Of a stretch of DNA of 64,000 bases, positions 4,969-64,000 are shown piece by piece. A model generated the notes under the pieces. That model made no database searches. It saw only the letters and a program-made list of their open reading frames with translations, and was not told the origin of the DNA. Both the position numbers and the translations under genes were made by a program. Origin of the DNA: a virus (Duplodnaviria; Caudoviricetes); the IMG/VR virus record IMGVR_UViG_2522572099_000001, positions 8,283-72,282 of that record; one strand, given 5' to 3'. Numbering within the stretch: the stretch's first letter is position 1; every line of letters begins with the position of its first letter.

Positions 4969-5986
4969 TTAGCGGGCTGAGCGCAGCCAGGCGGCGGCTC
5001 TTAATTTGATCCGCCAACTGGCGGCTGTCCGCGTCATCCTGGAACGTTGCCTCGATGTCGAACTCGTTCCAGATTTCCTCGATCTGCGCTTCGTTCTTCG
5101 CGCCCTGGAGCGCGATCTGGAAGCTTTCGAAGAACTTGCCGAAGTCGAACGGTTCGCCTTCCTCGCCTTGCTCCTCCTCCTCGACCACATCGCCGTCGCG
5201 GAACCCGTTGTCGGTTGTCGTCTCGACCTCGGCGGCCGCATCCGGGCTTGGCGGTGAGGGTGGCGACGGCGGCGTCAGCCTGGCGGCCGGCGCCTCCTCG
5301 CTGTGCTCGATGACCTCGCCGCCGGCGATCTCCCTCGCCTCGAACTCGTCGCGGATGCCGCCGAGCACATCGGCGAACAGTTCACGCAGGCAATAGCCGG
5401 CGGCGCGCCAGGCCTGCATGCGCGTCGGGTAGCGGTGCCAGGTGGAGTCGTTGGGCACTTCGCCCCACTCCTTCTTGCCGCTCTTCCAGATCATGCCGCG
5501 ACGCGTCTGGCGATCGTCCCACAGGCCAGCCGTCCTGGCTTCGGTCTCGTTGAACTCGACCCGCTTCTCCTCGCCTGTGTCGGCGCGCTTTGCCTCACAC
5601 CAGCCGGCTTTCTTGGCCGCATCGTAGCCGGTACGGACATAGGCGCACTTGCCCGAGCGGCGCACGACGTTGATCAGTCCATCGCCATAGAGGGCCGGCT
5701 TGCCGCCAATCACCGTGAACGAGCGCAGCGCCACCATCGGCGGCAGGCCAAGCTCGGCCCCTGACATGACAACGATGGCAACGGCGCTGGTGGCCTTCTT
5801 GCCCCAGCGCTTCCAGGCTTCGCCGTCGGCGTCCTCGGCAGGCGGACGGCCGACCAGCGCTTGCGGCGCCAGCTCGGCCTCGACGATGATCGTCGAGAGG
5901 CGCCAAACCTGCTCGACGCTGCTCGGGATGATAGCCGAGACCTGGCTGCCGGCATGCAAGGCCGCAATCTTCGCAATTTCGTTCAT
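4958..5986 (-). CDS. Single-strand annealing recombinase (RecT/Red-beta-like)
   Basis: GAELGLPPMVALRSFTVIGGKP...W.RYP.RM..WRA...LRELFADVLGG; acidic/Pro-rich tail. Confidence 0.75.
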   Translation of the reverse strand: MNEIAKIAALHAGSQVSAIIPSSVEQVWRLSTIIVEAELAPQALVGRPPAEDADGEAWKRWGKKATSAVAIVVMSGAELGLPPMVALRSFTVIGGKPALYGDGLINVVRRSGKCAYVRTGYDAAKKAGWCEAKRADTGEEKRVEFNETEARTAGLWDDRQTRRGMIWKSGKKEWGEVPNDSTWHRYPTRMQAWRAAGYCLRELFADVLGGIRDEFEAREIAGGEVIEHSEEAPAARLTPPSPPSPPSPDAAAEVETTTDNGFRDGDVVEEEEQGEEGEPFDFGKFFESFQIALQGAKNEAQIEEIWNEFDIEATFQDDADSRQLADQIKSRRLAALSPLNAG

Positions 5987-25693: not shown

Positions 25694-26416
25694 TCAGCCA
25701 GTGATGGCGCGCGTTCCTGCGCCGTTGTTCACCGGGCGATTGAACGTTGCGCGGTCGCCGGCTGCGACGCCGGCCGCGAAGGCACCGCTGTTGCCCTTCA
25801 TTCCGTGCGAATGCGAGCCGGAGCGAAGATTCATGCCGAGCTGGCCGAAGGCCCTGTTGACCAGCGCCATCTTGACGATGACCAGCGACTTGCCGCGACC
25901 GTTCGGGCGGGCCTGCTGCTCGCGTTCGTCAGCCAGGCGGTGAAGGCGCTCATTCATGCGGCTGATGCAGCCGACCATAAAACCCTTCTGGACGTCCCAA
26001 GGGCCGGCGCCGGCGCGGTTGTAGCGCTCGGTCATGAACTTGACGGTCTGGTTGCGGACGAACAGGTCGAGGCTCTCGATCAGCCAGATGGCGAACTGCC
26101 GGTCCTGCTCGGTGCCGAAGAACGTCATCGTGTCTTCCTTGCGCGAGAGCCAGACCTTGCAGTCGCAGTAGCGGCCGACTTCCAGCGCCAGATGATCCTT
26201 GATCACGTAGGTCTTGAAGTTGTCGCGCTTGACCTTCTGAGCCGCGATCGTCTCTGCGTCGAGCTCGATCTGGTCCTTGGTGAGGCCGTATTTGTCCATG
26301 AGTTCGCGGGCCTTGGCCATTGCCTCGAAAGCCTCGGCTTCGGTGGCGCCGGCATCGGTCGTCTTGGCGAGCAAAGCCTTGATTTTCGCTGCCATCTTCT
26401 TCTGTTGAGCGGTCAT
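25694..26416 (-). CDS. DUF2786-domain protein
   Basis: KIKALLAKT...TEAEA..AMAKARELMDKYGL. Confidence 0.8.
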   Translation of the reverse strand: MTAQQKKMAAKIKALLAKTTDAGATEAEAFEAMAKARELMDKYGLTKDQIELDAETIAAQKVKRDNFKTYVIKDHLALEVGRYCDCKVWLSRKEDTMTFFGTEQDRQFAIWLIESLDLFVRNQTVKFMTERYNRAGAGPWDVQKGFMVGCISRMNERLHRLADEREQQARPNGRGKSLVIVKMALVNRAFGQLGMNLRSGSHSHGMKGNSGAFAAGVAAGDRATFNRPVNNGAGTRAITG

Positions 26417-26485
26417 TTCAGGTCTCCGTGGTAGGGTTGGTTGCGCGTAACCATTTTGGTTACAAAGCGGGCGAAGTAAAGGGAA

Positions 26486-26791
26486 TTATTCGGCGAAGGC
26501 CACAAAGCCAGCGTCTGCAAGCTGGCGCCAGAATTCGCGGCACTGCTCGCGGGTGAAAATGCCGCTTGGCTCGTCCTCGCACCGCCAGTTCGTGGAACGG
26601 ACGATCATGTGCTCCTGGTCATCCTCCAACTCGGTGAAATACACCGCCACCAGGAAGCCATCATGTGGGGACCTGAGCTGGTGGCATGTGCCCTGGGTCT
26701 GTTTGAGACCGAAGAGGGAGCTACCGGTTCTGCGATGACGCCAGCCGCTAACCATCCGGCTATGCGCTGAGTGCTTTTGGAAATCGGTCAT
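26486..26791 (-). CDS. Hypothetical protein
   Basis: Leader motif and operator-promoter upstream. Confidence 0.65.
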   Translation of the reverse strand: MTDFQKHSAHSRMVSGWRHRRTGSSLFGLKQTQGTCHQLRSPHDGFLVAVYFTELEDDQEHMIVRSTNWRCEDEPSGIFTREQCREFWRQLADAGFVAFAE

Positions 26792-26830
26792 TTGTGTTTC
26801 TCCGTGGTAAGAAAGTTGTTTGATAACAAC

Positions 26831-26859
26831 AACTTAGATCGTAACCAGATCGGTTACAA
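26831..26859 (-). promoter_or_regulatory. Promoter TTGTAA-N17-TAAGTT with perfect operator (26841-26857) at the early/late divergence point
   Basis: Repeated architecture. Confidence 0.8.
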
Positions 26860-26897
26860 GTAAAAAGCGATCGCAGCAACAAAAATAGCGAGGCGGC

Positions 26898-28214
26898 GTG
26901 TTTCAGGGCGTTGTGCCGAAAGAGTGCATCGCGCAGATCCTTCGCGTTTCCGAGGTCGACACCTGGGGCAGGGTCTATAACTGCTGCTCGGGAACGTTCC
27001 GCTTCGAGCAGATCACGCTGGCAACGTTCCCCGGTGTCGAGATGCACTCGAACGACGTCAGCCTGTACTCCTCGGCGATCGCCGGCTATGTGCTCGGCAA
27101 TCCGCTCGACTATGAGTTTCACGGCGCGCTCGACTTCGTCAACGAGCATGATTTTCGCGAGCCGGACCAGCGCCTGGCGGCACTCGCCGTCGCCTTCAAT
27201 CTCGGCCGCTTCGTCGGCGGCAAGGCCAACGCCTACAAGACCAGCCATCGCACCCACCTGGTTGCGAACTTCGCCGGCTATGTCGAGCGCACCCTGGAGA
27301 AGGTCCGCAAGCTTCCCGGGATGATCCCGATCAAGAGCTACGCGCCGCGCGACTGGCTGCTCCACATGGAGGAGGCGATCGAGCGCAAGGCCGCCGTGTT
27401 CAGCTACCCTCCGTTTTTTTTGAACGGCTATGAAAAGATGTTCGCCTTCCTGGCCGAGAACATCAAATGGGACGCGCCGCAGTATCAGATTTTCGATCCG
27501 AAGAACCTGCGCGGCATCATCGAGCGCGTGCGCCAGGCCGGCGTGCCCTATTGCATCCTCTCCGACCAGGTCTACGAGGATCTCAAACCGGAGCTGGAGT
27601 TCATCTCCGGGCGCGGCAAGCCGCACTTCTGCTACGTCTCGACGGGCAAGTCGTCCTATCTGCAGCTGGTGCCGCGCTCAGCGCCGTTCCGCTACAAGCC
27701 TGTCGACCTTGCCAAGATCAAGCCGGATTCGGTGGTGACCATCGGCAAGGCCGACGCTGCCCAGATGACGTTTCTCAAGGACGTCTACCTGAAAAAAGGC
27801 ATCGTCCACACGCCGGGCATGGTGAACTACCTGGTCCGCGTCGACGACATGCTGGTCGGCGGGCTGATCTACAACATGGACAAGTTCACCCGGCAATCGA
27901 TCTACCTGCTTTCGGACTTCGCCATCTCGCGCGAGGGCAGACTGTCGAAGCTCGTCACCAGGCTCGCCTGCAATGGGGAACTGTTGCGCGACCTTGGGAA
28001 GCGCTTCATCGACCGTTTCGACAAGGTGCAAACCTCAGCGTTTTCGGACCATCCCGTTTCGATGAAATATCGCGGCATCTTCGAGCAAACCAAGCGCGAA
28101 GAGATCGGCGCGCCCGAAGGCAAGTTCAGGCTGCATTACGTCGGCGCCCGCATCGATGAGACGCCGCAACAAGCGTTCGAGTGGTGGTATGGCAAGCACT
28201 TCAACCGCAGTTGA
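26898..28214 (+). CDS. DNA modification protein: degenerate N6-adenine MTase domain fused to Mom-like GNAT domain
   Basis: N-term YNCCSG (motif I-like), SNDV, SYPPF (motif IV-like); C-term YL.K...YLVRVDDMLVG...YLLSDF...RLSKLV...TSAFSDHPVSMKYRG follows Mom/GNAT topology. Confidence 0.65.
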   Translation: MFQGVVPKECIAQILRVSEVDTWGRVYNCCSGTFRFEQITLATFPGVEMHSNDVSLYSSAIAGYVLGNPLDYEFHGALDFVNEHDFREPDQRLAALAVAFNLGRFVGGKANAYKTSHRTHLVANFAGYVERTLEKVRKLPGMIPIKSYAPRDWLLHMEEAIERKAAVFSYPPFFLNGYEKMFAFLAENIKWDAPQYQIFDPKNLRGIIERVRQAGVPYCILSDQVYEDLKPELEFISGRGKPHFCYVSTGKSSYLQLVPRSAPFRYKPVDLAKIKPDSVVTIGKADAAQMTFLKDVYLKKGIVHTPGMVNYLVRVDDMLVGGLIYNMDKFTRQSIYLLSDFAISREGRLSKLVTRLACNGELLRDLGKRFIDRFDKVQTSAFSDHPVSMKYRGIFEQTKREEIGAPEGKFRLHYVGARIDETPQQAFEWWYGKHFNRS

Positions 28215-28932
28215 CTGGAAAGCCCTCGACATCGAGGCGCGCCAGGTCGATCCGAAGACGCTCAAGCGCCGCGAGAAAAACGCGCACTACATGGCGCCTG
28301 CGATGTTCAAGCGCCTGGTCGAGAACGTCAAGATCGACGGGCGCCTGACGACAACCGTTCTCGCCTGCCAGGACAAGGACGGTTCGCTCGAAATTCTGTC
28401 CGGTCATCACCGCACCGCGGCCGCGATCGAGGCAGGCCTTGCCCTGGTCGACGCGCTCGTCATCACCACGCCGCTGACCGAAAAGCGCAAGGTGGCGATC
28501 CAGCTCAGCCACAACTCGATCAACGGCGAGGACGACCAGTCGCTGCTGGCCCAGCTTTACGCCTCGCTCGATATCGACGCCAAAAAATTCTCCGGTCTCG
28601 ACGACAGCGTGCTCTCCGGCGACAAGGGACCTGGGGCCGCAGCACTCGGCGGGGCGAACATCAAATACGACGAGCTGCTATTCGCCTTCCTGCCGGAGGA
28701 GCGCGTGCAGTTCGAGGTCGAAATGGAGGCGCTGGCCAAAAGGGCCAAGCGCTTCCGCATCCATGCAGCGCCGCAATCCACGTTCGACGGCTTTTTCGAT
28801 GCCATCGTGCGCACCAAGCAGCAGCTCAACATCGTCAATTCTGGCATAGCGCTTTCGGTGATGGCGCGCCTGGCCGGCGAACGTCTCGATCAGCTCGAGG
28901 CCGAGCAAGACGACAAGCCCGATGCGGCATGA
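28189..28932 (+). CDS. ParB-N/Srx-like protein of terminase-associated DNA modification module
   Basis: EKNAHYM...LVENVK.DG...EILSGHHR..AA...IQLSHNSI.G. Confidence 0.8.
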   Translation: MASTSTAVDWKALDIEARQVDPKTLKRREKNAHYMAPAMFKRLVENVKIDGRLTTTVLACQDKDGSLEILSGHHRTAAAIEAGLALVDALVITTPLTEKRKVAIQLSHNSINGEDDQSLLAQLYASLDIDAKKFSGLDDSVLSGDKGPGAAALGGANIKYDELLFAFLPEERVQFEVEMEALAKRAKRFRIHAAPQSTFDGFFDAIVRTKQQLNIVNSGIALSVMARLAGERLDQLEAEQDDKPDAA

Positions 28933-28968
28933 GATTTTCTGGTAACTCGAAGCGGAGCTTCAAACCAA

Positions 28969-29274
28969 ATGCAACGTGATTTCCGGCCGGTGGCCGAAGC
29001 ACGTCCAATCACCTATGGCACGATCGCCGATCTCAAAATGGCAAACGGTAGGGTCTACCGGGCAATCTTTGGGTTCAAGGCGAACGTTTGTGCCTGGTGG
29101 CCAATGGGCGGATATCGCAAGCGCGCAATCGGCACGGCGGAGCCTGTCGCGTTGTCGGTCATAAAAACCGGCGATGTAGACCATTTGGATTGGCAAGAGG
29201 CAGCTCTGCGCCAGCATGCAGATCCGCGCAACCTCTTACACGTTTGCCACTCGCGCCCGCGAGTCGTGTCGTGA
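28969..29274 (+). CDS. Hypothetical protein
   Basis: GGAG RBS; fills gap. Confidence 0.5.
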   Translation: MQRDFRPVAEARPITYGTIADLKMANGRVYRAIFGFKANVCAWWPMGGYRKRAIGTAEPVALSVIKTGDVDHLDWQEAALRQHADPRNLLHVCHSRPRVVS

Positions 29275-29933
29275 TCCGGACCAAGTCGATCGCAACCGCC
29301 GCGAAGCCGAAGGCAAAGGGCAAGCCTGCTGGCGGTTCAAAGGCCAAGGCGCCGGCAGTTGCAGAGGCTGAGGCCGAGGCGAAAAAAAAGCCCGTCGGCG
29401 CCAACAAGAAATCGAAGCTCAAGGCGAAGCGTCCTATCAAGCAGAAGCCGGCTCCAAAGCCGGACGCTGCACCGAAACCTGAAGCGCGCCAAAAGCCAGG
29501 GCCGGCGCCAAAGCTAGGATTGAAGGATGTAGAGCGCGTCATCGCGATGCTCCGCAACTGCGGCGGCATAAAATCGGTCGCGGCTGAGAAGCTCAACGTC
29601 AGTCGGCCGACGCTTCACTCGTTCCTGAATGACCATCCGGAAGTCCAGGAAGCCGCCGCCGAGATCGATGAGGAGATGCTTGACGTCGCCGAAGGTCGCG
29701 TCGTCATGGCGATCCGCGCCGGCGAGATGCAGACCGTGCGCTGGTATCTGGAGCTGAAAGGCAAGGAACGCGGCTATGTCCGCCGCGTCGAGCAAACCGG
29801 CAAGGGCGGTGGTCCGGTCGAGACCCGGCAGGCGCCCGACCTCTCCGGATATTCCGAGGCCGAGTTGGCGCAACTCCTGACGATCGAGGAGGCTCGGCAA
29901 AAACGGGAAGCGGGCGCCTCCCAGGCGAAGTAA
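29271..29933 (+). CDS. terS: Terminase small subunit with K/A/P-rich N-terminus
   Basis: HTH (AAEKLNVSRPTL), WYLELKGKERGY, EQTGKGGGPV; immediately upstream of terL. Confidence 0.8.
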   Translation: MIRTKSIATAAKPKAKGKPAGGSKAKAPAVAEAEAEAKKKPVGANKKSKLKAKRPIKQKPAPKPDAAPKPEARQKPGPAPKLGLKDVERVIAMLRNCGGIKSVAAEKLNVSRPTLHSFLNDHPEVQEAAAEIDEEMLDVAEGRVVMAIRAGEMQTVRWYLELKGKERGYVRRVEQTGKGGGPVETRQAPDLSGYSEAELAQLLTIEEARQKREAGASQAK

Positions 29934-31427
29934 ATGGCGCGCCCCGATGGCGGCGCCAGGCCGACGCTGGACGAATTGCGCATCGAGCTCGACCGCCGCG
30001 CCTGTGAGCGCTCGCTGTCCGAGTTCGTCAAGCGCGGCTGGCATGTGCTGGAGCCCGGCCAGCCTTACAGCCACGGCTGGCACATCGATGCCATTTCCGA
30101 GCACCTCGAGGCGGTCAGCGCCGGGGAAATCCTGCGGCTGCTGATGAACGTGCCGCCCGGCACGATGAAGTCGCTGCTTTCCGGCGTGTTCTTCCCGGCA
30201 TGGGAGTGGGGCCCGCAGGACATGCCGCACCTGCGGTTCATGGGCACGTCCTACAAGGACTCGCTGGCGATCCGCGACAACGTCAAGACCCGCCGGCTGA
30301 TCCAGTCGCAATGGTATCTGGATCGCTGGGGCGATCGCTTCGCCATGATCGGCGACCAAAATACGAAAACCAAGTTCGAGAACGACAAGACCGGCTTTCG
30401 CGAGGCGATGGCGTTCAACTCGATGACCGGCTCGCGCGGCGACCGCGTGCTGCTCGACGATCCGCTCTCGGTGCAGATGGCGAAGTCCGACACCGAGCGC
30501 CAGACCGCCAACGACACGTTCCACGAATCGCTGCCGACCCGCCTCAACAACCCGGACACGTCGGCCATCATCGTCATCATGCAGCGCCTGCATGAAACGG
30601 ACGTTTCGGGCACGATCCTTGCCGGCGACTACGGCTACGAGCACCTCATGCTGCCGATGGAGTTCGAGCCCGAGCGCAAATGCTACACATCGATCGGCTT
30701 CGAGGATCCGCGCAAGGTCGATGGCGAACTGCTGTTCGAGGCCAGGTTTTCCCGCACCGTCGTCGATCGCGACAAGAAGATCATGGGCAGCTACGCCTCG
30801 GCCGGGCAATTCCAGCAACGCCCGGCGCCGCGCGAAGGCGGCATGTTCCATCGCGAGTGGTTCGACAGCATCCGCGCTGTTCCGGCGGGAACCCGCTTCT
30901 GCCGCGGCTGGGACATGGCGGCCAGCGACGAGAAGGACTCGGCCTACAGCGCTGGCGTCAAGATCGGCGCGATGCCGGATGGCCGTTTCGTCATAGCGCA
31001 CGCCACGCGCGGCCAGTTGCTTGCCGGTGGCGTCGAGAAGTTGATCAAGACCACGGCGGCGGCCGACAAGGCGCAGCACGGCGGCAATGTCATGATCTCG
31101 CTGCCGCAGGATCCCGGCCAGGCGGGAAAAGCCCAGGTCGGCTACTACGTCAAGCAGCTGGCCGGCTACAACGTGCGCAAGTCGCCGGAGTCGGGCGACA
31201 AGATCACCCGGGCCGAGCCCCTTTCGGCGCAGGCTGAGGCCGGCAACGTCGTCATCCTGCGTACAGGAGACCAGGCCAAGGATGCCTGGATAGAACCGTA
31301 TCTCGACGAAATCTGCATGTTCCCCAACAGCAAATTCAAGGATCAGACCGATGCGTCGAGTCGCGCCTTCAATGAGCTGGCGACGCGCAAGAAAGAAACC
31401 AAGACCAGCTTCGCGGACATGCACTGA
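29934..31427 (+). CDS. terL: Terminase large subunit
   Basis: LLMNVPPGTMKS, TGSRGD.VLLDDP, IMQRLHE, WDMA, FP...DQTDA. Confidence 0.95.
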   Translation: MARPDGGARPTLDELRIELDRRACERSLSEFVKRGWHVLEPGQPYSHGWHIDAISEHLEAVSAGEILRLLMNVPPGTMKSLLSGVFFPAWEWGPQDMPHLRFMGTSYKDSLAIRDNVKTRRLIQSQWYLDRWGDRFAMIGDQNTKTKFENDKTGFREAMAFNSMTGSRGDRVLLDDPLSVQMAKSDTERQTANDTFHESLPTRLNNPDTSAIIVIMQRLHETDVSGTILAGDYGYEHLMLPMEFEPERKCYTSIGFEDPRKVDGELLFEARFSRTVVDRDKKIMGSYASAGQFQQRPAPREGGMFHREWFDSIRAVPAGTRFCRGWDMAASDEKDSAYSAGVKIGAMPDGRFVIAHATRGQLLAGGVEKLIKTTAAADKAQHGGNVMISLPQDPGQAGKAQVGYYVKQLAGYNVRKSPESGDKITRAEPLSAQAEAGNVVILRTGDQAKDAWIEPYLDEICMFPNSKFKDQTDASSRAFNELATRKKETKTSFADMH

Positions 31428-32860
31428 TGGCTAACAACGTCGACAACCACCATCCCGACTACGATCTTCGTGTCGAGGAATGGGCGCTGATGCGCGACGC
31501 GGCGCGTGGCGAAACGGCCATCAAGGACGCCGAGACGACTTATCTCCCGATGCCGTCGGGCTTCACCAAGCGGCCCGATGGCGGCGTTGCCCTGTTCGGC
31601 GCCTACAAGCTGAGGGCGCAATTCCCGGAGATCGTCGGGCCTACGATCGGCGGCATGGTCGGCGTCATCCATCGCGTCGAAATCCAGATCGACATGCCGC
31701 AGGCCATGGACGGCCTCTGGGAGAAGGCCACGATCGACGGCATGCCGCTCGAGGCGCTGGCCGCCAAGATCACCGGCGAGGTCCTGACCACCGGGCGCTT
31801 CGCCCTGCTTGCCAGCGCGCCAAGCGCCGGCGGCGAGCCGTATATCTCGACCTATTGCACCGAGGCGCTGATCAACTGGTCGGAAGCCCGCGATTTCTTC
31901 GTGCTGGACGAGTCCGGCCTGGTCCGCGAAGGCTTCGATTGGGTCGAGAGCAAGCGATATCGTGTGCTCGAGCTGGTCGACGGCAAGTATCAGTCCACCG
32001 AATATTCCGGCGGTACGCTTGCGGCCGGCACGCCCGTCAAACCGACAGCCAAGGGCGGCACGCCGCTCGAAGAAATCCCGCTGGTCGTCGTCGGTCCGCG
32101 CGACCTGTCGCCTTCACCTGAGACGCCGCCGCTGATCGGCGTGGCGCGCTCGGCGGTCAACATGTACCAGCTCTCGGCCGACTATCGCTGGCAGCTGTTC
32201 ATGACCGGCCAGGAAACGCTGTTCATCATCAACGGCGATGAACCCGAAATCGTCGGCGCCGGCGTCATCGTCTCGCTCAAGGCCGATGGCGAGCAGACCC
32301 CGGATGCGAAATATGTCGGTCCGTCCGGCACCGGCATCGACGCGCACAAGGTGGCGATCACCGATGAGCGCGACGCCGCGGCAGCTGCCGGCGCCAAACT
32401 GTTCGATACAGCCTCGCAGGCGCAGGAATCGGGCGACGCCAGGCGGCTTCGCTTCGCCGCCCAGACCGCAACGCTGGTCACCATCGCCCAGGCTTCGGCA
32501 AAGGCGCTGGAACAGGTGCTGCGCCACATCGCTGTCATGAAGGGGCTCGACCCGACGCAGGTCATCGTCAAGCCGAACCTGTCGTTCATCGATAGCACGC
32601 TAACGCCGGCCGAAGTCGTCCAGGTCATCCAGGGCTGGCATGATGGCGGCTACAGCTACGAGACCATGTACGAGCGGCTGCAGAAGGGCGAGGCGGTCAA
32701 TGCCGACCGCACCGCCGAGGAAGAACGCAAGCTCATCGACAAGGAAACGGCGGCGTCCGACGCTACCGATGCGGAGCGCGGCATCCTGCCGGGTCCGCCT
32801 AAACCCACTGTTCCGGCTGTTCCGGCCCTTCCTGTTCCAGTGCAGGCGCCGGCGGCGTGA
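31427..32860 (+). CDS. Portal protein (DUF4055-type)
   Basis: HPDY...W..MRDA..GE.AIK...YLPMP; follows terL. Confidence 0.9.
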   Translation: MANNVDNHHPDYDLRVEEWALMRDAARGETAIKDAETTYLPMPSGFTKRPDGGVALFGAYKLRAQFPEIVGPTIGGMVGVIHRVEIQIDMPQAMDGLWEKATIDGMPLEALAAKITGEVLTTGRFALLASAPSAGGEPYISTYCTEALINWSEARDFFVLDESGLVREGFDWVESKRYRVLELVDGKYQSTEYSGGTLAAGTPVKPTAKGGTPLEEIPLVVVGPRDLSPSPETPPLIGVARSAVNMYQLSADYRWQLFMTGQETLFIINGDEPEIVGAGVIVSLKADGEQTPDAKYVGPSGTGIDAHKVAITDERDAAAAAGAKLFDTASQAQESGDARRLRFAAQTATLVTIAQASAKALEQVLRHIAVMKGLDPTQVIVKPNLSFIDSTLTPAEVVQVIQGWHDGGYSYETMYERLQKGEAVNADRTAEEERKLIDKETAASDATDAERGILPGPPKPTVPAVPALPVPVQAPAA

Positions 32861-33063
32861 GAGCCTCGCTTCGTATCGATCGCGAGGTGCTGGAGCGCAA
32901 CATGTGGCCCGACAAGAGCTGCCGCGTCCGCATCGTCGGCGCGTCCTGGGATCCGGCCACCTCCAGCGTCGTGCTGGATCTCGAAGGCAAGAGCCTGCCC
33001 GACGGTGGCGAGGTCAAGCTGTTGACGCGCCGCTGGACAGAGACGGAGTTCAAGCCCCTGTGA
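32857..33063 (+). CDS. 68-aa hypothetical protein
   Basis: GTGA coupling at both ends. Confidence 0.6.
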   Translation: MRASLRIDREVLERNMWPDKSCRVRIVGASWDPATSSVVLDLEGKSLPDGGEVKLLTRRWTETEFKPL

Positions 33064-34112
33064 CGCTGTTTCGTGAGTGTTTCCGGCATCTCGGATCGAT
33101 CGAGCGCCGACGCATCCCGCCGATTCCGCGCGAGGCGATGCGGCTGCACCGCCTGGAACGGCCCGAGCCGTGGCCAAGCGAGGTCGTCGAGGCCATGCGC
33201 GCCGGCCCGCCGGACAACTGGTATCCGGACTATGCCGCGTTCTATCGGCGGCTGAGCGCGTTCACCGGCGTTCCCGAGGAACGCATGGTCGTCGGCGCCG
33301 GGATTGAGGATTTCATTCGCACGCTCGTCATGTTGTGCTGCGAGCCGGCCGACGGCTTCGCCTTCACCTGGCCCACATGCGCCATGTTCGACATTTATGC
33401 CCAGGTGTTCCTGGCAAGACCGGTTCGCATCGTCACGGACCCGAAACGACTTCTCTCGGTGCATGACGTCACCGACAAGATCGACAGCGGCGTCAAACTG
33501 CTGATCCTGCCCAACCCAGGCCAGCCGGTCGAGACCTATTTCTGCCTGGCGGAACTGCGCCACATCGCACAGCGCTGCGCCAGCGTCGGCGCGGTGTTCG
33601 CCATCGATGAGGCTTATCTCGGCTTCGGCGCCGAAACCGCACTGCCGCTGGTCGACGACTTCGAAAACGTCGTCATCCTGCGCACCTTCTCGAAGGCTTT
33701 TGGCGGTGCAGCACTTCGCGTCGGCTATGCCATCGGGCAGCCTTCGGTCATCCGCCCTCTCCACGCCATCCGCGAATCCGGTGAGATCGCCGGGCCTTCG
33801 ATCAACGGCGCCGTGGCGCTGATGGATAAGTGGTCGAGGTGGGTCGAGCCCGGCATCGCCATGGTCTGCGAAGGCCGCGACTGGCTGCGCGACACGCTTC
33901 TGCGCGACGGCTACGACGCGCGTGGCTGGTTCGCCAATCACGTCATGGTCCGTCTGGACGAGCCGGCAGCGCCGTTCGCGGAGCGCATGCGCAAGCGCGG
34001 CGCCCATGTGAAGGCCGGGTTCCCGGCACCGCTTGACGGAAGCCTGCTGATCACGGGCGGCTCGGTCACGCTGATGCAGCGGTTTTATCGAGCATTCCAG
34101 GAGGCGTTGTGA
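33060..34112 (+). CDS. PLP-dependent fold-type I enzyme (HisC/CobD-like aminotransferase or decarboxylase)
   Basis: YPD, GAGIED, NPGQP, IDEAY, RTFSKAFG...RVGY. Confidence 0.9.
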   Translation: MTLFRECFRHLGSIERRRIPPIPREAMRLHRLERPEPWPSEVVEAMRAGPPDNWYPDYAAFYRRLSAFTGVPEERMVVGAGIEDFIRTLVMLCCEPADGFAFTWPTCAMFDIYAQVFLARPVRIVTDPKRLLSVHDVTDKIDSGVKLLILPNPGQPVETYFCLAELRHIAQRCASVGAVFAIDEAYLGFGAETALPLVDDFENVVILRTFSKAFGGAALRVGYAIGQPSVIRPLHAIRESGEIAGPSINGAVALMDKWSRWVEPGIAMVCEGRDWLRDTLLRDGYDARGWFANHVMVRLDEPAAPFAERMRKRGAHVKAGFPAPLDGSLLITGGSVTLMQRFYRAFQEAL

Positions 34113-34771
34113 GCGGCATGGACGGCGTCTTCCACGAGACTGACGGCAAGCTCGAACTCGTCGGCGACTGGCAAAAGGTCTATGCCGAGAACAGCGATCC
34201 CTGGGACCAATCCGGCACCAAGGGCCAGATGGCGGCCTATTACGCCACCAGCCGCGTTCGCCTGGTCGAGACGCTGGGCAAGCTTGGTCCGTTCAATTTC
34301 GGGATCGAGATCGGTTGCGGCCATGGCCACCTCACCGCCATGCTCAATAACTCCGTGGCGATGATGCTAGGCATGGACATCAGCCAGGAAGCGATCGGCA
34401 CGGCACGCTTGCTCCACCGGACAATCCCGTTCGCTCAGGGCGATATAACCGCGGATGGCGGCATTCGGCATTTCGGTCCGAATTACATCGATTTCGTCAT
34501 CCTGGCGCAGTGCCTCTGGTACGTCCTGCACCGCTTCGACGTGATGCTCGCCAACTGTCTCGATACAATCCGCCCCGGCGGGCTGTTCGTCGTCTCTCAG
34601 GCCTTCCTGGAGGGCGAGCAGCGCTACGGCGCCGAGATCGCCGACGGCTTCACCGGCGCGCTTCGCCTGTTCATGGCGAGCGATCGCCTGCAGCTCATCC
34701 ACGCCAACTACGACGACAGCGGGCGCCTCGTGCACCGCGACGGCCTCATGATTTTCAGGAAGGTTGCATGA
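34109..34771 (+). CDS. Class I SAM-dependent methyltransferase (NodS-like)
   Basis: Y...DPW, EIGCGHG, GMDIS, L.YV, PGG. Confidence 0.85.
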   Translation: MSGMDGVFHETDGKLELVGDWQKVYAENSDPWDQSGTKGQMAAYYATSRVRLVETLGKLGPFNFGIEIGCGHGHLTAMLNNSVAMMLGMDISQEAIGTARLLHRTIPFAQGDITADGGIRHFGPNYIDFVILAQCLWYVLHRFDVMLANCLDTIRPGGLFVVSQAFLEGEQRYGAEIADGFTGALRLFMASDRLQLIHANYDDSGRLVHRDGLMIFRKVA

Positions 34772-35616
34772 ACGCCAACGACGCGACGCTCCGCAACCTG
34801 GCGCGCAAGGCGACCTTCGTCGACCATGTGCAGATGATCGGCAAGGTGCCGCTGTTCTCGTTCATCGAACTCAACCCGACCGAACTCTGCAACCGGGCCT
34901 GCGTGTTCTGCCCCCGCGTCGACGAGGCGAGCTATCCGAACCAGCGCCTGCACATGGCGATGCCGCTGGCGGAGAAGATCGCATCCGACCTCCAGGAACT
35001 CGACTATCAGGGCACGGTCCACATTTGCGGCTTTGGCGAACCGCTGCTGCATCCGCGCATCGTCGACCTGGTGCGCGCTTTCTCGAACTTCCGCGTCGAG
35101 ATCACCACCAACGGCGATCGGCTCAATCCTGAGCTGATCCGCGAGCTGACCGCCGCCGGCTGCGATTACATCTGCGTCTCGATGTATGACGGTCCCCATC
35201 AGATCCCGCATTTCGAGGCGATGTTCGCCGAGGCGGGATCGACCGAGTTCATCTTGCGCGATCGCTGGCAGCCGGAGGAAGAGAATTTCGGCCTGTCGCA
35301 CCTGACCAATCGGGCGGGAACGATCAATGTCGGGGTGCAGCGGCCGGTCGACGCCGCGCGGCCATGCTGGTATCCGTCGTACCAGCTGATGCTCGACTGG
35401 AACGGCGACGTGCTGCTGTGCCCGCAGGACTGGACGAAACGCGCGCGCTTCGGCTCTGCGGCGACCGAACACCTGCTCGACATCTGGACCTCGCCGGCCA
35501 TGCGCAAGCGCCGCATGCAGTTGCTGCGCGGTCGTGAAGGCCTGTCGCCATGCGGCGGCTGCAACAGCGACGGCTGCAAGCACGGATCGGAACACGCTGC
35601 TGCCTGGCAAGGCTGA
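34768..35616 (+). CDS. Radical SAM enzyme with SPASM/twitch domain
   Basis: CNRACVFC, GEPLLH, TTNG, C.YP...G.V..C...C..C. Confidence 0.9.
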   Translation: MNANDATLRNLARKATFVDHVQMIGKVPLFSFIELNPTELCNRACVFCPRVDEASYPNQRLHMAMPLAEKIASDLQELDYQGTVHICGFGEPLLHPRIVDLVRAFSNFRVEITTNGDRLNPELIRELTAAGCDYICVSMYDGPHQIPHFEAMFAEAGSTEFILRDRWQPEEENFGLSHLTNRAGTINVGVQRPVDAARPCWYPSYQLMLDWNGDVLLCPQDWTKRARFGSAATEHLLDIWTSPAMRKRRMQLLRGREGLSPCGGCNSDGCKHGSEHAAAWQG

Positions 35617-35618
35617 CA

Positions 35619-36893
35619 GTGTCGACCATCGCCATCATCGGCCATGGCCGCTCGCCCGAGGGCAAGGGCTGGGGACCGCTGATCGACGGTTGCGACATGG
35701 TGGTTCGCATGTGGGACTGCGCCTGGCAGGCCCAAGGCGACTACGGCAGCAGATACGATTATGGCCTGATCGAAGCGCATCCGGCCATGATGGTGCCCTT
35801 CCAGAAGAACAACCGGCGCCGGCCGGCCCGCGGCTGGATCGCATCGAAGCTGCATCGTCCGGAGCGCTGCGGCTTGCCGCCAAAATGCGAACTGGTCGAC
35901 CAGGAGCCATGGAACGAGATCGGCAAGAAGCTCGGCGGCATCGGCGCCACCGGCCGGCTCCAGTTCACGCGCGGCACGATCGCCACCTGTTGGGCGATCG
36001 AGAAAGCGCCGCGCGGCAGCACCATCGTCTTGGTCGGGTTCGACAACATCGTCGCCGGCAGGACGCTGGAGCTCAACCAGGCCTTTGCGCCGATCTACCA
36101 GCGCAATCCCGGCACATTCTCGTTCGGTGCTTACACAGGGGGCGTCAGCAAGGCCGGCAACCACGACTTCGCCGTCGAGTTGCCGGTCATGCAGCACCTT
36201 GCCGCCAGGTATCACGTCCGGCTGGTCACGGCCGGCGAGATCTGGCCGTCGACGCCGGACGCACTGCCGATCCCTTCCGACTGGAGGCCTGAGCCTGTGA
36301 AGACCGCGCTCATTCTTGGCGATGCCGCATCGGTCCGCGACGATGCCGCGGCCGCGCTCAAACTGTTCACGCCGACGGCGATCGCTGCCGCCAACAACAT
36401 CGGCATCGAATGGGAAGGCAAGCTCGACTACTGGTTCACGCTGCATCCCGGCGCCTGCATCGACTGGATCGGCATCCGTGACGCGCTGTCGCGTCGTCTC
36501 AAGGCAGGGCGAAACAAGCCTGAAATATGGGCGCACAAGGCCGCCAACGGCATCGATCGCCACACGCCCGATTGGGGCGGCTCGACCGGCCTGCTCGCCG
36601 CCAAGGGCCTGCTCGAACTCGGCTATGAGCGCATCGTGCTCGCCGGTGTGCCGATGGACAGTTCGCCGCACTTCTACAGCGGCCAGCCCTGGCGTCAGGT
36701 GGAGCGCTACCGGCGCGCCTGGCAGGAACATCTGCCGGACCTCGCGCCGTTCGTGCGGTCGATGGGCGGCTGGACGAAGGATCTGCTCGGCAAGCCCGAT
36801 CCGGAATGGCTAGGCGTGTTGATTTCGGCTCCCTCAAAGGAGGTCGAGAAAATTAGCATGGGTCAGGATGAGGCTGTCCACAGCCTCGCTTGA
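35619..36893 (+). CDS. Two-domain protein: GT29 sialylmotif-like domain plus GT42/Maf(DUF115)-like domain
   Basis: IAIIGHG.S....G..ID..D.VVR...TRG...LVGFD; second ALILG.A.SV...AN...STG.......LGY.RIVLAG.PM...HFY. Confidence 0.6.
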   Translation: MSTIAIIGHGRSPEGKGWGPLIDGCDMVVRMWDCAWQAQGDYGSRYDYGLIEAHPAMMVPFQKNNRRRPARGWIASKLHRPERCGLPPKCELVDQEPWNEIGKKLGGIGATGRLQFTRGTIATCWAIEKAPRGSTIVLVGFDNIVAGRTLELNQAFAPIYQRNPGTFSFGAYTGGVSKAGNHDFAVELPVMQHLAARYHVRLVTAGEIWPSTPDALPIPSDWRPEPVKTALILGDAASVRDDAAAALKLFTPTAIAAANNIGIEWEGKLDYWFTLHPGACIDWIGIRDALSRRLKAGRNKPEIWAHKAANGIDRHTPDWGGSTGLLAAKGLLELGYERIVLAGVPMDSSPHFYSGQPWRQVERYRRAWQEHLPDLAPFVRSMGGWTKDLLGKPDPEWLGVLISAPSKEVEKISMGQDEAVHSLA

Positions 36894-36923
36894 CTTCGCC
36901 AGCGTTGTAACCAATATGGCACC
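36890..36923 (+). promoter_or_regulatory. Promoter of RNA locus overlapped by operator
   Basis: TTGACT-N16-CAATAT; operator GTAACCAATATGGCACC 36907-36923; very similar to the minus-strand segment at about 26447-26480. Confidence 0.6.
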
Positions 36924-36934
36924 AACAAGAGTGT

Positions 36935-37227
36935 CCCGCCGCTTCGTTCATGGGCATCTGCACCATTGACTGCTGGCGATAGGCGGGCGCCAGGATGCCA
37001 AGGCCGGAGCAGGCGGCCGTTTCATCCTGGCAAGGAACCCTGAGAGCGCCGGTACACTCCCCGGCCGTGACCATGCCTGTTTCCGGTGTACCCGGGCATG
37101 GAGGCGATAACAGAAAACCGGCGGGCACGGCTCTCCAACAGGAGGCTCCAAGCCCGACAGTTTCAGATGTCCTCCCAAGGACAAAGACGGCAGCCATCGT
37201 GAGCGGCTTGACTGCTCGAACGGCGGG
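36935..37227 (+). ncRNA. Large structured ncRNA candidate (~290 nt)
   Basis: Closing helix CCCGCCG(C)TTCG/CGAACGGCGGG; nested helices 36989/37031, 37042/37135, 37071/37101. Confidence 0.55.
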
Positions 37228-37261
37228 CCGGGCCATTGCGACAGGCCTGGGCCAAAAGTTT

Positions 37262-63905: not shown

Positions 63906-63945
<40 letters not shown>

Positions 63946-64000
63946 GGTGCATCAAATCTGGCACCAGCCTTTTTCATCACAAAATCAGCCACTTAACGTT

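What the first reader, a model, noticed from the sequence alone, without database searches (positions are those of the whole stretch)
26898..29933. MTase/Mom-like GNAT fusion plus ParB heading the packaging operon: candidate adenine hypermodification system
Seen: a 438-aa protein with degenerate amino-MTase motifs (YNCCSG, SNDV, SYPPF instead of D/NPPY) and a C-terminal domain whose motif order matches Mom/GNAT proteins, followed by a ParB-N protein and then terS-terL. Established: ParB and DNA-modifying enzyme genes often sit next to terminase genes; Mu Mom makes N6-carbamoylmethyl-adenine and has been reported to use glycyl-tRNA as donor. Inference: the MTase fold gives sequence recognition or base flipping, the GNAT transfers an aminoacyl group during packaging, and the phage supplies its own tRNA-Gly. 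A self-contained enzyme plus private tRNA system would be new to my knowledge.
Basis: partly seen in the sequence, partly recalled or inferred. Interest (0 to 1): 0.85.

Follow-up and report, generated by a model that had tools for sequence, protein, structure and literature searches.

The report
Phage DNA modifier with private tRNA-Gly
A prophage gene pair just ahead of the DNA-packaging genes (a methylase-like/acyltransferase fusion enzyme and a ParB-like helper) travels through many phage lineages together with an odd glycine tRNA, here a shortened one 9 kb away, which suggests that these phages use tRNA-carried glycine to decorate their DNA, although no experiment has tested this.

Summary
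ORF 26898-28214 (438 aa) matches Pfam PF22555 (phage Dam-like) and PF22559 (phage GNAT-like). A ParB-like gene, terS-like, terL and portal follow. AlphaFold plus structure search give a Dam fold and a GNAT fold. The Dam motif IV lacks its catalytic D/N (0 of 215 relatives have it). Mu Mom ranks 2nd of 48,161 chains for the GNAT domain but ties with ordinary GNATs, and no sequence link to Mom was found.

The ParB gene is adjacent in 275 of 286 related loci. Glycine-type tRNA genes accompany the pair: 53 of 91 lineages, 41 within 1.5 kb, against 11 lineages with any other isotype. All 96 distinct copies keep the GlyRS determinants (G1:C72, C2:G71, C35, C36, U73). Many break decoding rules.

A model built without the window finds the window's 69-nt short-D-arm element at 37262-37330 (E 9e-7). 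Three of four records of close relatives carry one 12-14 kb downstream.

Best reading: a Mom-like but non-orthologous, tRNA-Gly-dependent DNA modification module. The chemistry is untested. The protein family is catalogued but uncharacterised, and eight paper searches found no report of the tRNA link. This scan reached the same reading before on other genomes.

The parts
26898..28214 (+). Fusion enzyme, 438 aa: phage Dam-like domain plus phage GNAT-like domain. It is the first rightward gene after a block of leftward genes.
   Evidence: ORF. Pfam PF22555 and PF22559. phrog_7858. AF2 model with pLDDT 90.0.
26898..27650 (+). Dam-like domain (residues 1-251). Motif I-like CCSG.F, motif II-like SNDV (D53), D152, and motif IV YPPF at 27405-27416 with no catalytic D/N.
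   Evidence: VIA-align: 7m6b_A Z 14.2 (rmsd 4.7, 208 aligned); E. coli Dam 4rtn_A Z 13.0 (rmsd 4.3, 198 aligned); T4 Dam Z 12.6. Invariant residues. Motif IV census. Inteins of relatives sit right after this motif.
27729..28199 (+). GNAT-fold domain (residues 278-434). Conserved LSD (D340), K351 and SMKYRG (389-393). No [QR]xxGx[GA] CoA-loop signature.
   Evidence: Domain model with pLDDT 91.6. GNAT matches at Z 9.3-11.4, including Mom 8bv8_B at Z 11.1, rmsd 3.2, 139 aligned. Motif census.
28156..28932 (+). ParB-like partner, 258 aa. Its start overlaps the end of the fusion gene. Conserved NARYM, SG(H/N)HR and QLSHN.
   Evidence: phrog_7405 at 3.6e-59. Alignment A8. Profile against PDB ParB proteins, E 6e-5. 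Adjacent to the fusion gene in 275 of 286 loci.
29088..29933 (+). terS-like gene (context). The true start may lie further downstream, because the N-terminal half is Lys/Ala/Pro-rich.
   Evidence: HTH_8 at 21.1 bits, below the cut-off of 22. Lies directly before terL. tblastn matches to the gene before terL in relatives.
29934..31427 (+). Large terminase subunit (context).
   Evidence: Terminase_6C at 1.2e-7. phrog_38 at 8e-72.
37262..37330 (+). 69-nt tRNA-Gly-like 'mini-tRNA'. It has G1:C72, C2:G71, G3:C70, U73, an encoded CCA, anticodon loop GUUCCAC (UCC), a T arm and a reduced 12-nt D region.
   Evidence: Best hit of covariance model R1 (built without the window): 34.6 bits, E 9.1e-7, full model length. 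It is the only such hit in the whole 72-kb virus record. A near-identical copy lies in relative record G003. Missed by ARAGORN and Rfam.

Best explanation
The 438-aa protein and the overlapping ParB-like gene form a conserved two-gene phage module. It most likely modifies phage DNA after replication, using glycine carried on a tRNA.

Proposed mechanism, with each step marked:
(1) Inferred: host GlyRS charges a phage-encoded tRNA-Gly or tRNA-Gly-like RNA. That RNA keeps every known bacterial GlyRS determinant but is often unfit for decoding.
(2) Fold shown, role inferred: the Dam-like domain binds DNA and presents a flipped base, probably adenine. It has lost the catalytic D/N of motif IV.
(3) Fold shown, chemistry inferred: the GNAT domain transfers the glycyl group from the tRNA 3' end to the base, as Mu Mom does. 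In Mom the product rearranges to N6-carbamoylmethyl-adenine.
(4) Adjacency shown, role inferred by analogy with ParB-dependent phage thymine dioxygenases: the ParB-like partner activates or loads the enzyme on double-stranded DNA.
(5) Inferred: because the module is the first gene pair of the packaging operon, DNA would be modified late, before or during encapsidation, and would be protected from host nucleases.

In this window the tRNA-like gene is a D-arm-reduced 69-nt form, 9 kb downstream in the same late transcription direction.
For: Domains and folds.

Loss of the methyl-transfer motif: among 215 distinct relatives, motif IV reads FPPT 72, FPPF 65, YPPF 29, YPPT 4, WPPT 1. Another 44 were not matched by my pattern. 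None of the 215 has [DNS]PP[YFWH]. Inteins in relatives are inserted directly after this motif (alignment break at residue 174/176), which marks it as functionally critical.

The GNAT domain lacks the CoA-loop signature [QR]xxGx[GA] (signature recalled) in 0 of 171 sequences where the site could be anchored. Mom also lacks it at that site.

Module conservation: a ParB homologue is adjacent in 83 of 83 loci of the first set and in 275 of 286 overall.

tRNA linkage: 139 of 286 loci hold a Gly-type tRNA or tRNA-like gene. By lineage (fusion protein clustered at 70% identity), 53 of 91 hold one, 41 of 91 within 1.5 kb and 30 within 700 bp upstream. Only 11 of 91 hold any other isotype: Met 6, Arg 3, Lys 1, Leu 1, Cys 1, with one lineage carrying two.

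Using ARAGORN calls only, which the Gly-built model cannot bias, there are 21 Gly lineages against 12 lineage-isotype instances of other kinds. The binomial P is 9e-20 at an assumed 5% background and 6e-8 at 20%.

Of 160 model hits, 158 lie on the strand of the fusion gene (P 9e-45).

Among 96 distinct Gly-type sequences: G1 96, C2 96, G3 93 (the other 3 have A3:U70), C35 96, C36 96, G71 96, C72 96, U73 96. By contrast U33 occurs in only 65, purine-37 in 67, and position 34 reads U 50, A 29, C 11, G 5. Those determinants are the published ones for bacterial GlyRS (PMC10464925, abstract and passages).

Cloverleaf pairing: 95.5% of cells are paired, 22 of 22 pairs show changes on both sides, and 0 of 500 shuffles reach this (the alignment was fitted to the model).

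Window element: E 9.1e-7 with a model that excluded it. Relatives G001, G003 and G004 carry one 12-14 kb downstream on the same strand.

Precedents: Mom uses Gly-tRNAGly on double-stranded DNA (PMC13219725). ParB-like activators are required by some phage DNA-modifying enzymes (PMC13229309, abstract and passages).
Against: No biochemical or DNA-modification data exist for any member.

No sequence similarity to Mom was found: hhalign probability 0.1% and no PF25680 hit. Structurally Mom (Z 11.1) is tied with ordinary CoA-dependent GNATs (Z 10.4-11.4).

Silva et al. state that Mom's co-substrate could not be predicted from structure. Mom's essential HTH-like insertion has no evident counterpart in the 171-residue domain.

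Motif I, II and III-type residues (G32, D53, D152) are invariant. The domain may therefore still bind SAM and carry out chemistry that the model does not explain.

38 of 91 lineages show no Gly-type gene within the DNA held. Record G002 (91% complete), from the window's own clade, shows none. In this clade the gene is not adjacent to the module.

One GlyRS study concluded that the enzyme needs the arms and the whole L-shape of the tRNA (PMC10464925 discussion). Charging of D-arm-reduced mini forms is therefore uncertain.

Faecalibacterium phage FP_Brigit has tRNA-Lys(CUU) in the corresponding place.

The 286 loci are not independent, and some contigs were fetched twice. Clustering only partly corrects for this.
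Confidence: 0.6

Rival explanations
1. The tRNA-Gly-like RNA is the target rather than the donor. The GNAT domain acetylates, or the methylase-like domain methylates, (glycyl-)tRNA-Gly or the phage's own tRNA-like RNA. The purpose would be translational control, a decoy, or counter-defence against systems that attack tRNA-Gly.
For: GNAT toxins such as TacT act on Gly-tRNAGly (Silva et al., structure section and Fig. 5 legend). The linkage data show only that the enzyme and the tRNA belong together, not the direction of the chemistry.
Against: The N-terminal domain has the fold of DNA adenine methyltransferases, including the region that aligns with Dam residues 9-270. The obligatory partner is a ParB-type protein (275 of 286 loci). 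The module sits at the head of the packaging genes. A precedent exists for ParB-dependent DNA-base modifiers. An RNA target explains none of these.
Confidence: 0.15
2. It is an orphan anti-restriction DNA methyltransferase with an unusual active-site motif. The GNAT domain uses acyl-CoA, on DNA or on a protein such as ParB or terminase. The tRNA-Gly genes are neighbours for unrelated reasons.
For: Some sources name relatives 'putative antirestriction adenine methyl...' and 'DNA methyltransferase'. SAM-pocket-type residues are invariant. FP_Brigit encodes a SAM synthetase 2 kb upstream. Most top structural matches of the C-domain are CoA-dependent acetyltransferases.
Against: The catalytic D/N of motif IV is absent in 0 of 215 relatives. 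The CoA-loop signature is absent in 0 of 171 (signature recalled). This reading does not explain the isotype-specific, strand-specific linkage to tRNA-Gly genes that keep GlyRS determinants but lose decoding features.
Confidence: 0.12
3. The tRNA-Gly genes are ordinary phage tRNAs (codon supplementation, rescue from tRNA-targeting defences) or integration-site remnants. They merely tend to lie at the early/late boundary where the module also lies.
For: Phage tRNA genes often cluster at operon boundaries (recalled). A few loci carry Met, Arg, Lys, Leu or Cys tRNAs as well. The window record does have a tRNA-derived terminal repeat.
Against: Gly-type genes are in 53 lineages, against 11 lineages for all other isotypes together. 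29 of 96 sequences have A34, 31 lack U33, 28 lack a purine at position 37, and some have 6-nt loops or reduced D arms. All 96 have both acceptor strands, with covariation in four helices, so they are not att-site fragments.
Confidence: 0.05
4. The pair has no catalytic role. A dead methylase-like DNA binder plus ParB would act as accessory factors for pac-site recognition or DNA condensation by the terminase.
For: It lies immediately before terS and terL. Motif IV is degenerate. ParB proteins are DNA clamps (recalled; discussed in PMC13229309).
Against: Strict conservation of pocket residues in both domains (D53, D152, PP, D340, K351, MKYR). Inteins target the motif IV loop. The tRNA linkage is left unexplained. 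In actinophages the module is not next to the terminase genes.
Confidence: 0.05

Closest known systems
Mom of bacteriophage Mu (Pfam PF25680; PDB 8bv8; Silva et al. 2026, PMC13219725)
   Same: GNAT fold (Z 11.1, rmsd 3.2, 139 aligned; rank 2 of 48,161). Phage-encoded. The proposed use of Gly-tRNAGly as donor for a DNA base. Lacks the [QR]xxGx[GA] signature at the beta4-alpha3 site.
   Different: No detectable sequence relationship. Mom is a single 241-aa domain with an essential HTH-like insertion and uses host tRNA-Gly. The 43 Mu-like Mom loci examined carry no dedicated tRNA-Gly (they form one lineage). Here DNA binding is presumably supplied by a fused Dam-like domain, with an obligatory ParB partner and usually a phage-encoded tRNA-Gly.
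Alpha-class DNA adenine methyltransferases (E. coli Dam, T4 Dam, DpnM)
   Same: The overall fold across residues 1-250 (Z 12-13). The N-terminal Gly-containing loop and the NDV acid in the positions of motifs I and II.
   Different: Motif IV is (F/Y)PP(F/T), not (D/N)PP(Y/F), in the relatives examined. No Pfam MethyltransfD12 hit at E<=0.1. hhalign to E. coli Dam gives probability 0.1%. Fused to a GNAT domain.
ParB-dependent phage thymine dioxygenases (5mYOX176/ParB176; O'Toole et al. 2026, PMC13229309)
   Same: A phage DNA-base-modifying enzyme encoded beside a cognate orphan ParB-like protein that has a conserved nucleotide-binding domain. In that system ParB is required on double-stranded DNA.
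   Different: A different enzyme superfamily (Fe/2OG dioxygenase against Dam-like/GNAT). Whether the ParB partner here is related to ParB176 beyond the shared domain was not tested.
Non-proteinogenic tRNA-Gly isoacceptors of Staphylococcus aureus used by Fem transferases (PMC7826273; only the listing and the start of the abstract were seen)
   Same: tRNA-Gly species devoted to a non-ribosomal glycyl transfer. Their sequences are shaped by that use rather than by decoding.
   Different: They are cellular, full-size tRNAs that donate to peptidoglycan precursors. Here they are virus-encoded, often with a reduced D arm, a 6-nt loop or A34, and are linked to a DNA-type enzyme.
Pfam PF22555 + PF22559 two-domain phage family (uncharacterised)
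   Same: The window protein is a plain member (E 1.7e-50 and 4.4e-45). 886 cluster representatives match it.
   Different: None at the protein level. The family has no assigned function, and four search terms for these Pfam entries found no paper.

Membership tests
PF22555/PF22559 Dam-like + GNAT-like phage fusion family | Both Pfam domains above their gathering scores, in this order | tested here: met
   172.3 and 153.9 bits against cut-offs of 27. All 120 listed homologues carry both domains.
PF22555/PF22559 Dam-like + GNAT-like phage fusion family | ParB-like gene immediately downstream (empirical feature of the family, found here) | tested here: met
   The window's ParB gene overlaps the fusion gene. 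Adjacent in 275 of 286 loci.
Mom family (PF25680) | Sequence match to the Mom profile | tested here: not met
   No PF25680 hit at E<=0.1, whereas Mu Mom scores 2.4e-75. hhalign of A1 against Mom gives probability 0.1%.
Mom family (PF25680) | GNAT fold | tested here: met
   8bv8_B: Z 11.1, rmsd 3.2, 139 aligned. This is tied with other GNATs.
Mom family (PF25680) | HTH-like insertion (Mom residues ~175-209), essential for activity | tested here: inconclusive
   The 171-residue domain model shows only one C-terminal helix after the last strands. No residue-level superposition was available.
Mom family (PF25680) | Catalytic residues R111, S124, R151 (from Silva et al.) | not testable with these tools
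   The tools give aligned ranges only. The family's own invariant residues are D340, K351, K390, Y391, R392.
Mom family (PF25680) | Uses Gly-tRNAGly to modify N6 of adenine in dsDNA | not testable with these tools
   Only indirect support, from linkage to tRNA-Gly genes.
Alpha-class N6-adenine DNA methyltransferases (Dam) | Fold with SAM-binding motifs I and II | tested here: met
   Z 13.0 to E. coli Dam. CSG.F and NDV are conserved.
Alpha-class N6-adenine DNA methyltransferases (Dam) | Catalytic motif IV (D/N)PP(Y/F) | tested here: not met
   YPPF in the window. 0 of 215 relatives have [DNS]PP[YFWH]. FP_Brigit has NPPT.
ParB/Srx N-terminal (CTPase-type) domain | Profile match including the GxxR box | tested here: met
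   Pfam ParB_N alone is below its cut-off (E 0.05). Profile A8 hits ParB chains 7bnr, 7bnk and 4umk at E 6e-5 to 2e-3, aligning SG(H/N)HR with GERR.
ParB/Srx N-terminal (CTPase-type) domain | Central HTH DNA-binding domain and parS binding of chromosomal ParB | not tested
The PDB match covers only profile positions 32-109.
Bacterial tRNA-Gly | GlyRS determinants G1:C72, C2:G71, C35, C36, U73 | tested here: met
   The window element has all of them, plus G3:C70 and CCA. 96 of 96 related elements keep them. Determinants as given in the PMC10464925 abstract.
Bacterial tRNA-Gly | Canonical cloverleaf recognised by tRNA finders | tested here: not met
   Not called by ARAGORN or by Rfam RF00005 even at E<=10. 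The D region is only 12 nt and the T loop reads CUUGACA.

The most novel reading that the evidence does not exclude
A widespread phage system in which a virus-encoded tRNA-Gly has been released from decoding and serves only as the glycyl donor. These tRNAs show A34, loss of U33, a pyrimidine at position 37 or a 6-nt loop, and in alphaproteobacterial phages have shrunk to 64-72-nt forms with a reduced D arm. The acceptor enzyme is a Dam-like/GNAT fusion that needs a ParB-like activator and hypermodifies phage DNA before packaging. This would be a second, independently evolved and far more common route to tRNA-dependent DNA modification than Mom. It would also be the first viral tRNA class evolved for chemistry on DNA. 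Occasional switches of donor (tRNA-Lys in FP_Brigit) would give different adducts.
Probability: 0.5. Interest if true: 0.9.

Novelty: new variant of a known kind. Interest (0 to 1): 0.8.

Why it matters
tRNA-dependent DNA hypermodification has so far been shown for one enzyme, Mu Mom, which borrows host tRNA-Gly. This module would show that the strategy is widespread: 886 protein cluster representatives match, from Alphaproteobacteria to actinophages and gut Firmicutes phages. It uses a different enzyme architecture and comes with its own donor RNA. It offers three things. First, new DNA adducts and new sequence-specific DNA-labelling enzymes. Second, a natural example of tRNAs reduced to their synthetase-recognition features, useful for defining what GlyRS minimally needs. 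Third, an explanation for many orphan 'ParB-like nuclease' and 'hypothetical' gene pairs, and for solitary tRNA-Gly genes, in phage annotations. Cultured phages carry it (Mycobacterium phages Argie, Jeon and Taptic; Gordonia phage Clawz; Faecalibacterium phage FP_Brigit), so it can be tested directly.

Tried and rejected
Searches and tests that gave nothing useful:
- Sequence search of the 438-aa protein against PDB chains: nothing meaningful (best E 0.23, a chaperonin). The ParB partner alone gave no hit at E<=1.
- hhalign of the family alignment against Mu Mom and against E. coli Dam: probability 0.1% each. The fold relations rest on structure comparison only.
- Search for longer proteins holding the GNAT domain (768-2190 aa): none. 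tblastn of the C-domain against cultured phages found only the same 15 fusion-bearing records.
- I therefore did not test whether the amidoligase-GNAT architecture (phrog_2443; BFVD A0A8S5SJK3) is also linked to tRNA-Gly.
- blastn of the window's RNA locus 36881-37560 against the first 83 loci: no hit. I first read this as absence in relatives. One search showed that the relatives' copies lie beyond the 10-kb flanks, so I withdrew that reading.
- Mom loci as a control: only 43 close Mu relatives, which form one lineage. One locus had a 4-tRNA cluster (Met, Arg, Thr, Gly). This is too narrow to serve as a background.
- The loose regular-expression screen was uninformative and is not used.
- Promoter and terminator scan of 26400-29300: 0 promoter-like sites, 2 terminator-like sites on the opposite strand, within chance.
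- Minimum-free-energy fold of the 69-nt element: z -2.85. It gives an extended anticodon hairpin rather than the T arm. The cloverleaf reading rests on the covariance model and on covariation.
- RNAalifold on 41 mini forms: recovered the acceptor, anticodon and part of the T helices, but no consensus D hairpin.
- Public RNA runs: two metatranscriptome runs hold 0.04 of the sampled words. I did not lay them, so there is no evidence on expression.
- Background share of tRNA-Gly among phage tRNAs was not measured. 5-20% was assumed.
- Paper searches that found no report of the fusion family or of its tRNA link: (eight searches; terms are listed in those calls).
- Supplements are closed. The supplementary similarity networks and homologue tables of Silva et al., and the gene-neighbourhood datasets of O'Toole et al. 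(whose Fig. 9 legend lists GNAT among co-occurring families), might mention this module. I could not see them.

Full report
WHAT IS THERE. On the + strand, after a block of leftward genes, lie five ORFs: 26898-28214 (438 aa, GTG start), 28156-28932 (258 aa, overlapping the first), 29088-29933 (281 aa), 29934-31427 (497 aa) and 31427-32860 (477 aa).

Pfam places the first in two curated families: PF22555 'Phage DNA Adenine Methylase-like domain 1' (residues 2-251, E 1.7e-50) and PF22559 'Phage GNAT-like domain' (278-434, E 4.4e-45). It places the fourth in Terminase_6C and the fifth in DUF4055. PHROGs give phrog_7858 (unknown function) for the fusion, phrog_7405 (unknown) and several ParB-like families for the second ORF, and phrog_38 (terminase large subunit) for the fourth.

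The window is bases 8283-72282 of a 72,282-base virus record with direct terminal repeats. Its closest relatives are Mesorhizobium proviruses, at 90% protein identity.

FOLDS. An AlphaFold2 model built on 51 homologues is confident (pLDDT 90.0, pTM 0.72).
- Residues 1-250 superpose on alpha-class DNA methyltransferases: 7m6b_A Z 14.2 (rmsd 4.7, 208 aligned), E. coli Dam 4rtn_A Z 13.0 (rmsd 4.3, 198 aligned), T4 Dam Z 12.6, DpnM Z 11.9.
- The C-terminal domain, modelled alone (pLDDT 91.6) and compared with 48,161 representative chains, is a GNAT. 117 chains reach Z>=8. The best is 1y9k_A at Z 11.4. Mu Mom (8bv8_B) is second at Z 11.1 (rmsd 3.2, 139 aligned). Rank 50 still has Z 9.3.

Mom is therefore among the nearest solved structures but is not separated from ordinary acetyltransferases. 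By sequence there is no link to Mom or to E. coli Dam.

Among predicted viral structures, the only close relative of the C-domain is a 695-aa 'amidoligase enzyme' (28% identity, TM 0.85). This matches the phrog_2443 hit and shows that the same GNAT family occurs in a second architecture.

CONSERVED SITES. The family is large: 499 homologues at E<=1e-3 in one search, with all 120 listed carrying both domains, and 886 cluster representatives in the exhaustive search.

Invariant or nearly invariant residues fall in two groups:
- Dam-like domain: C30-S31-G32-x-F, S51-N52-D53-V54, D152, P171-P172.
- GNAT domain: G321, S339-D340, K351, M389-K390-Y391-R392-G393, Y414.

Motif IV reads YPPF in the window. 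Among 215 distinct relatives it reads FPPT 72, FPPF 65, YPPF 29, YPPT 4 and WPPT 1. My pattern did not match 44 others (FP_Brigit has NPPT; two have QPPS). None of the 215 has [DNS]PP[YFWH].

The hydrogen-bonding D/N that amino-methyltransferases need (recalled) is thus missing, while pocket residues of the motif I-III type persist. Intein-bearing relatives (for example P0005 and P0011) are interrupted exactly after this motif (alignment break at residue 174/176), a place typical of functionally critical loops.

The GNAT domain lacks the acetyl-CoA pyrophosphate-loop signature [QR]xxGx[GA] (recalled) in 0 of 171 sequences where the site could be anchored. Mom lacks it there too.

THE ParB PARTNER. 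A homologue of the 258-aa protein follows the fusion gene in 83 of 83 loci of the first set and in 275 of 286 loci overall. Nine of the 11 exceptions are loci with a partial fusion match or no ParB match; in the other two (L151, L161) the ParB match lies more than 800 bp beyond the fusion gene.

In the closest relatives the two genes form a unit of about 86% nucleotide identity, while the terminase region is 66-75% identical. A profile of 20 partners matches solved ParB proteins (7bnr E 6e-5) over the nucleotide-binding domain and aligns SG(H/N)HR with the GERR box.

A published precedent exists. Some phage thymine dioxygenases act on double-stranded DNA only with their cognate orphan ParB (PMC13229309; abstract and passages read).

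THE tRNA LINK. ARAGORN finds one tRNA in the window, a type II tRNA at 37342-37434, and no tRNA-Gly.

In cultured phages, however, Mycobacterium phage Argie has an annotated tRNA-Gly 88 bp before its fusion gene, and FP_Brigit has a tRNA-Lys(CUU) in the same place.

I gathered 286 loci and ran ARAGORN on all of them. Nearly every tRNA near the module is tRNA-Gly (anticodons UCC, CCC, ACC) or an 'undetermined' tRNA with a 6-nt loop AUUCCA. These usually lie 120-400 bp upstream on the same strand.

A covariance model (R1) built from 35 of these genes, without the window, gave 160 hits at E<=0.01 in 3.87 Mb searched on both strands. Of these, 158 are on the strand of the fusion gene. Many are 64-72-nt elements that ARAGORN misses: GCGG...CCGCUCCA, an NCC loop and a reduced D arm.

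By lineage (fusion protein clustered at 70% identity, 91 clusters):
- 53 hold a Gly-type gene in the DNA held.
- 41 hold one within 1.5 kb of the module: 30 within 700 bp upstream, 6 at 700-1500 bp upstream, and 5 within 1.5 kb downstream of ParB.
- 12 hold one more than 1.5 kb upstream.
- 38 show none.
- 11 hold another isotype (Met 6, Arg 3, Lys 1, Leu 1, Cys 1; one lineage carries two).

At 50% identity the figures are 26, 22 and 10 of 42 clusters.

Using ARAGORN calls only, to avoid the model's bias, there are 21 Gly lineages against 12 lineage-isotype instances of other kinds. P is 9e-20 at an assumed 5% background and 6e-8 at 20%.

WHAT THE RNAs CONSERVE. I aligned 104 hits from 93 sources to the model. 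I dropped eight rows (Arg 2, Met 4, Leu 1, one unclassified), which left 96 distinct Gly-type sequences. These include the 35 used to build the model.

All 96 have G1, C2, C35, C36, G71, C72 and U73. G3:C70 occurs in 93 and A3:U70 in 3. These are the determinants reported for bacterial GlyRS: G1:C72, C2:G71, C35, C36 and U73 (PMC10464925, abstract).

Positions that matter for decoding are free. Position 34 reads U 50, A 29, C 11, G 5. U33 occurs in only 65 of 96. A purine at position 37 occurs in 67 of 96. CCA is encoded in 78 of 96.

All four helices covary: 95.5% of cells are paired, 22 of 22 pairs change on both sides, and 0 of 500 shuffles reach this. Sliding the partners drops pairing to 37-47%. 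The alignment is fitted to the model, which favours it.

THE WINDOW'S OWN ELEMENT. R1's best hit in the window is 37262-37330 (+): 34.6 bits, E 9.1e-7, covering the whole model. It is the only Gly-type hit in the 72-kb record.

It reads as follows: acceptor GCGGAUG/CAUCCGC, U73, CCA, anticodon loop GUUCCAC, T stem CCAGG/CCUGG with loop CUUGACA, and only 12 nt where the D arm should be.

It lies 9,048 nt downstream of the fusion gene, after four enzyme genes and a roughly 290-nt ORF-free stretch, and 12 nt before the type II tRNA.

Related proviruses of the same clade carry such an element further downstream on the same strand:
- G003, about 12.3 kb: nearly identical to the window's.
- G004, about 13.9 kb.
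- G001, about 14.3 kb.
- G002 (91% complete): none.
In G003 and G004 a tRNA-Met sits beside it. An earlier impression that relatives lack the element was an effect of the 10-kb flanks.

INTERPRETATION. The enzyme and a GlyRS-chargeable but decoding-relaxed tRNA-Gly belong together. The enzyme has a DNA-methyltransferase fold without the methyl-transfer residue, plus a GNAT fold without the CoA signature. Its obligatory partner is of a kind shown elsewhere to activate a phage DNA-base modifier.

The simplest reading is a tRNA-Gly-dependent glycyl transfer to a DNA base. This resembles the Mom reaction established by Silva et al., but arose independently and supplies its own donor RNA. Silva et al. 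note that drawing on host Gly-tRNA could harm translation. A dedicated tRNA that ribosomes use poorly would avoid that cost (inference).

What is not shown: any modification of DNA, the target base, charging of the mini forms, and any contact between the proteins. One study reports that GlyRS needs the full L-shape of the tRNA. The conserved SAM-type pocket is unexplained. The main rival is that the tRNA is the enzyme's target rather than its donor.

NOVELTY. The protein family is catalogued in Pfam without a function. Eight searches of the paper library found no report of the family or of its tRNA link. The discussion of the Mom paper does not mention phage-encoded donor tRNAs or methylase-like fusions.

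Notes of this scan show that follow-up agents reached the same reading on several other genomes. I read those notes after completing my own tests. Two claims in them I did not verify: that the amidoligase architecture is also tRNA-Gly-linked, and that Lys or Arg variants exist, beyond my seeing tRNA-Lys in FP_Brigit.

This window adds the alphaproteobacterial form, in which the tRNA has shrunk to a 64-72-nt mini-tRNA (29 of the 53 positive lineages hold only such forms) and can sit 9-14 kb away from the enzyme gene.

Noticed in passing
window 37343-37433 (+): A type II tRNA with a long variable arm lies 12 nt after the mini tRNA-Gly. ARAGORN calls it tRNA-Ser with anticodon AGA; Rfam tRNA gives 37.9 bits. 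To my recollection A34 is unusual for a bacterial Ser tRNA, so this may be a second tRNA not meant for decoding. In relatives G003 and G004 the companion is a tRNA-Met instead.
   Followed up: partly
window 63906-63966 (+); also record positions 1-61 and 72188-72248: A 61-nt fragment resembling a tRNA with a GGU (Thr) anticodon loop and a truncated T arm forms the direct terminal repeat of the virus record. It is probably the duplicated attachment site of a provirus integrated into a tRNA-Thr gene.
   Followed up: partly
relatives P0005, P0009, P0011, P0024, P0040, P0068, P0089, P0130, P0252; equivalent to window about 27419-27424: Fusion proteins of about 690-725 aa carry an insertion of about 275 aa between residues 174 and 176, directly after motif IV. 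Sources name two of them (P0005, P0011) as intein or Hint domain, and in P0011 the residue after the insertion is Ser.
   Followed up: partly
L003 (Faecalibacterium phage FP_Brigit) 2891-4069, 5660-5736, 5899-8225: The most divergent cultured member (18-20% identity) has tRNA-Lys(CUU) where others have tRNA-Gly. Its motif IV reads NPPT, and a phage SAM synthetase gene lies 2 kb upstream. It may use a different donor amino acid.
   Followed up: partly
window 32860-36893 (+): Four tightly packed enzyme-like ORFs lie between the portal gene and the RNA locus (32640-34112, 34109-34771, 34510-35616, 35550-36893). Other first-reader notes read them as a PLP enzyme, a methyltransferase, a radical SAM enzyme and a glycosyltransferase-like protein. 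Relative L011 has only about 1.2 kb at this place. I ran no family search on them.
   Followed up: no
window 36935-37255 (+): An ORF-free stretch of about 290 nt lies directly upstream of the mini tRNA-Gly. There is no Rfam match above chance. Another first-reader note proposes a structured RNA here. I did not examine it.
   Followed up: no
L080 9831-9896 and 9904-9969; L187 1478-1551 and 1553-1626; L200 3245-3317 and 3335-3408: Some loci carry two tandem Gly-type genes directly upstream of the fusion gene.
   Followed up: no
L250, L258, L259, L269 (about 4806-5181); L245 group (about 5438-5505): In one gut-type lineage a tRNA-Cys(GCA) sits about 75 nt before the Gly-like tRNA with the 6-nt loop. 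Its sister loci have a further weak tRNA-like hit (24.3 bits, acceptor GAGAUAA) about 175 nt after it.
   Followed up: no
BFVD A0A8S5SJK3; phrog_2443: The same GNAT-phage-like domain (28% identity, TM 0.85) ends a 695-aa 'amidoligase enzyme' of an uncultured siphovirus. This is a second architecture for the family. I did not examine its gene neighbourhood.
   Followed up: no
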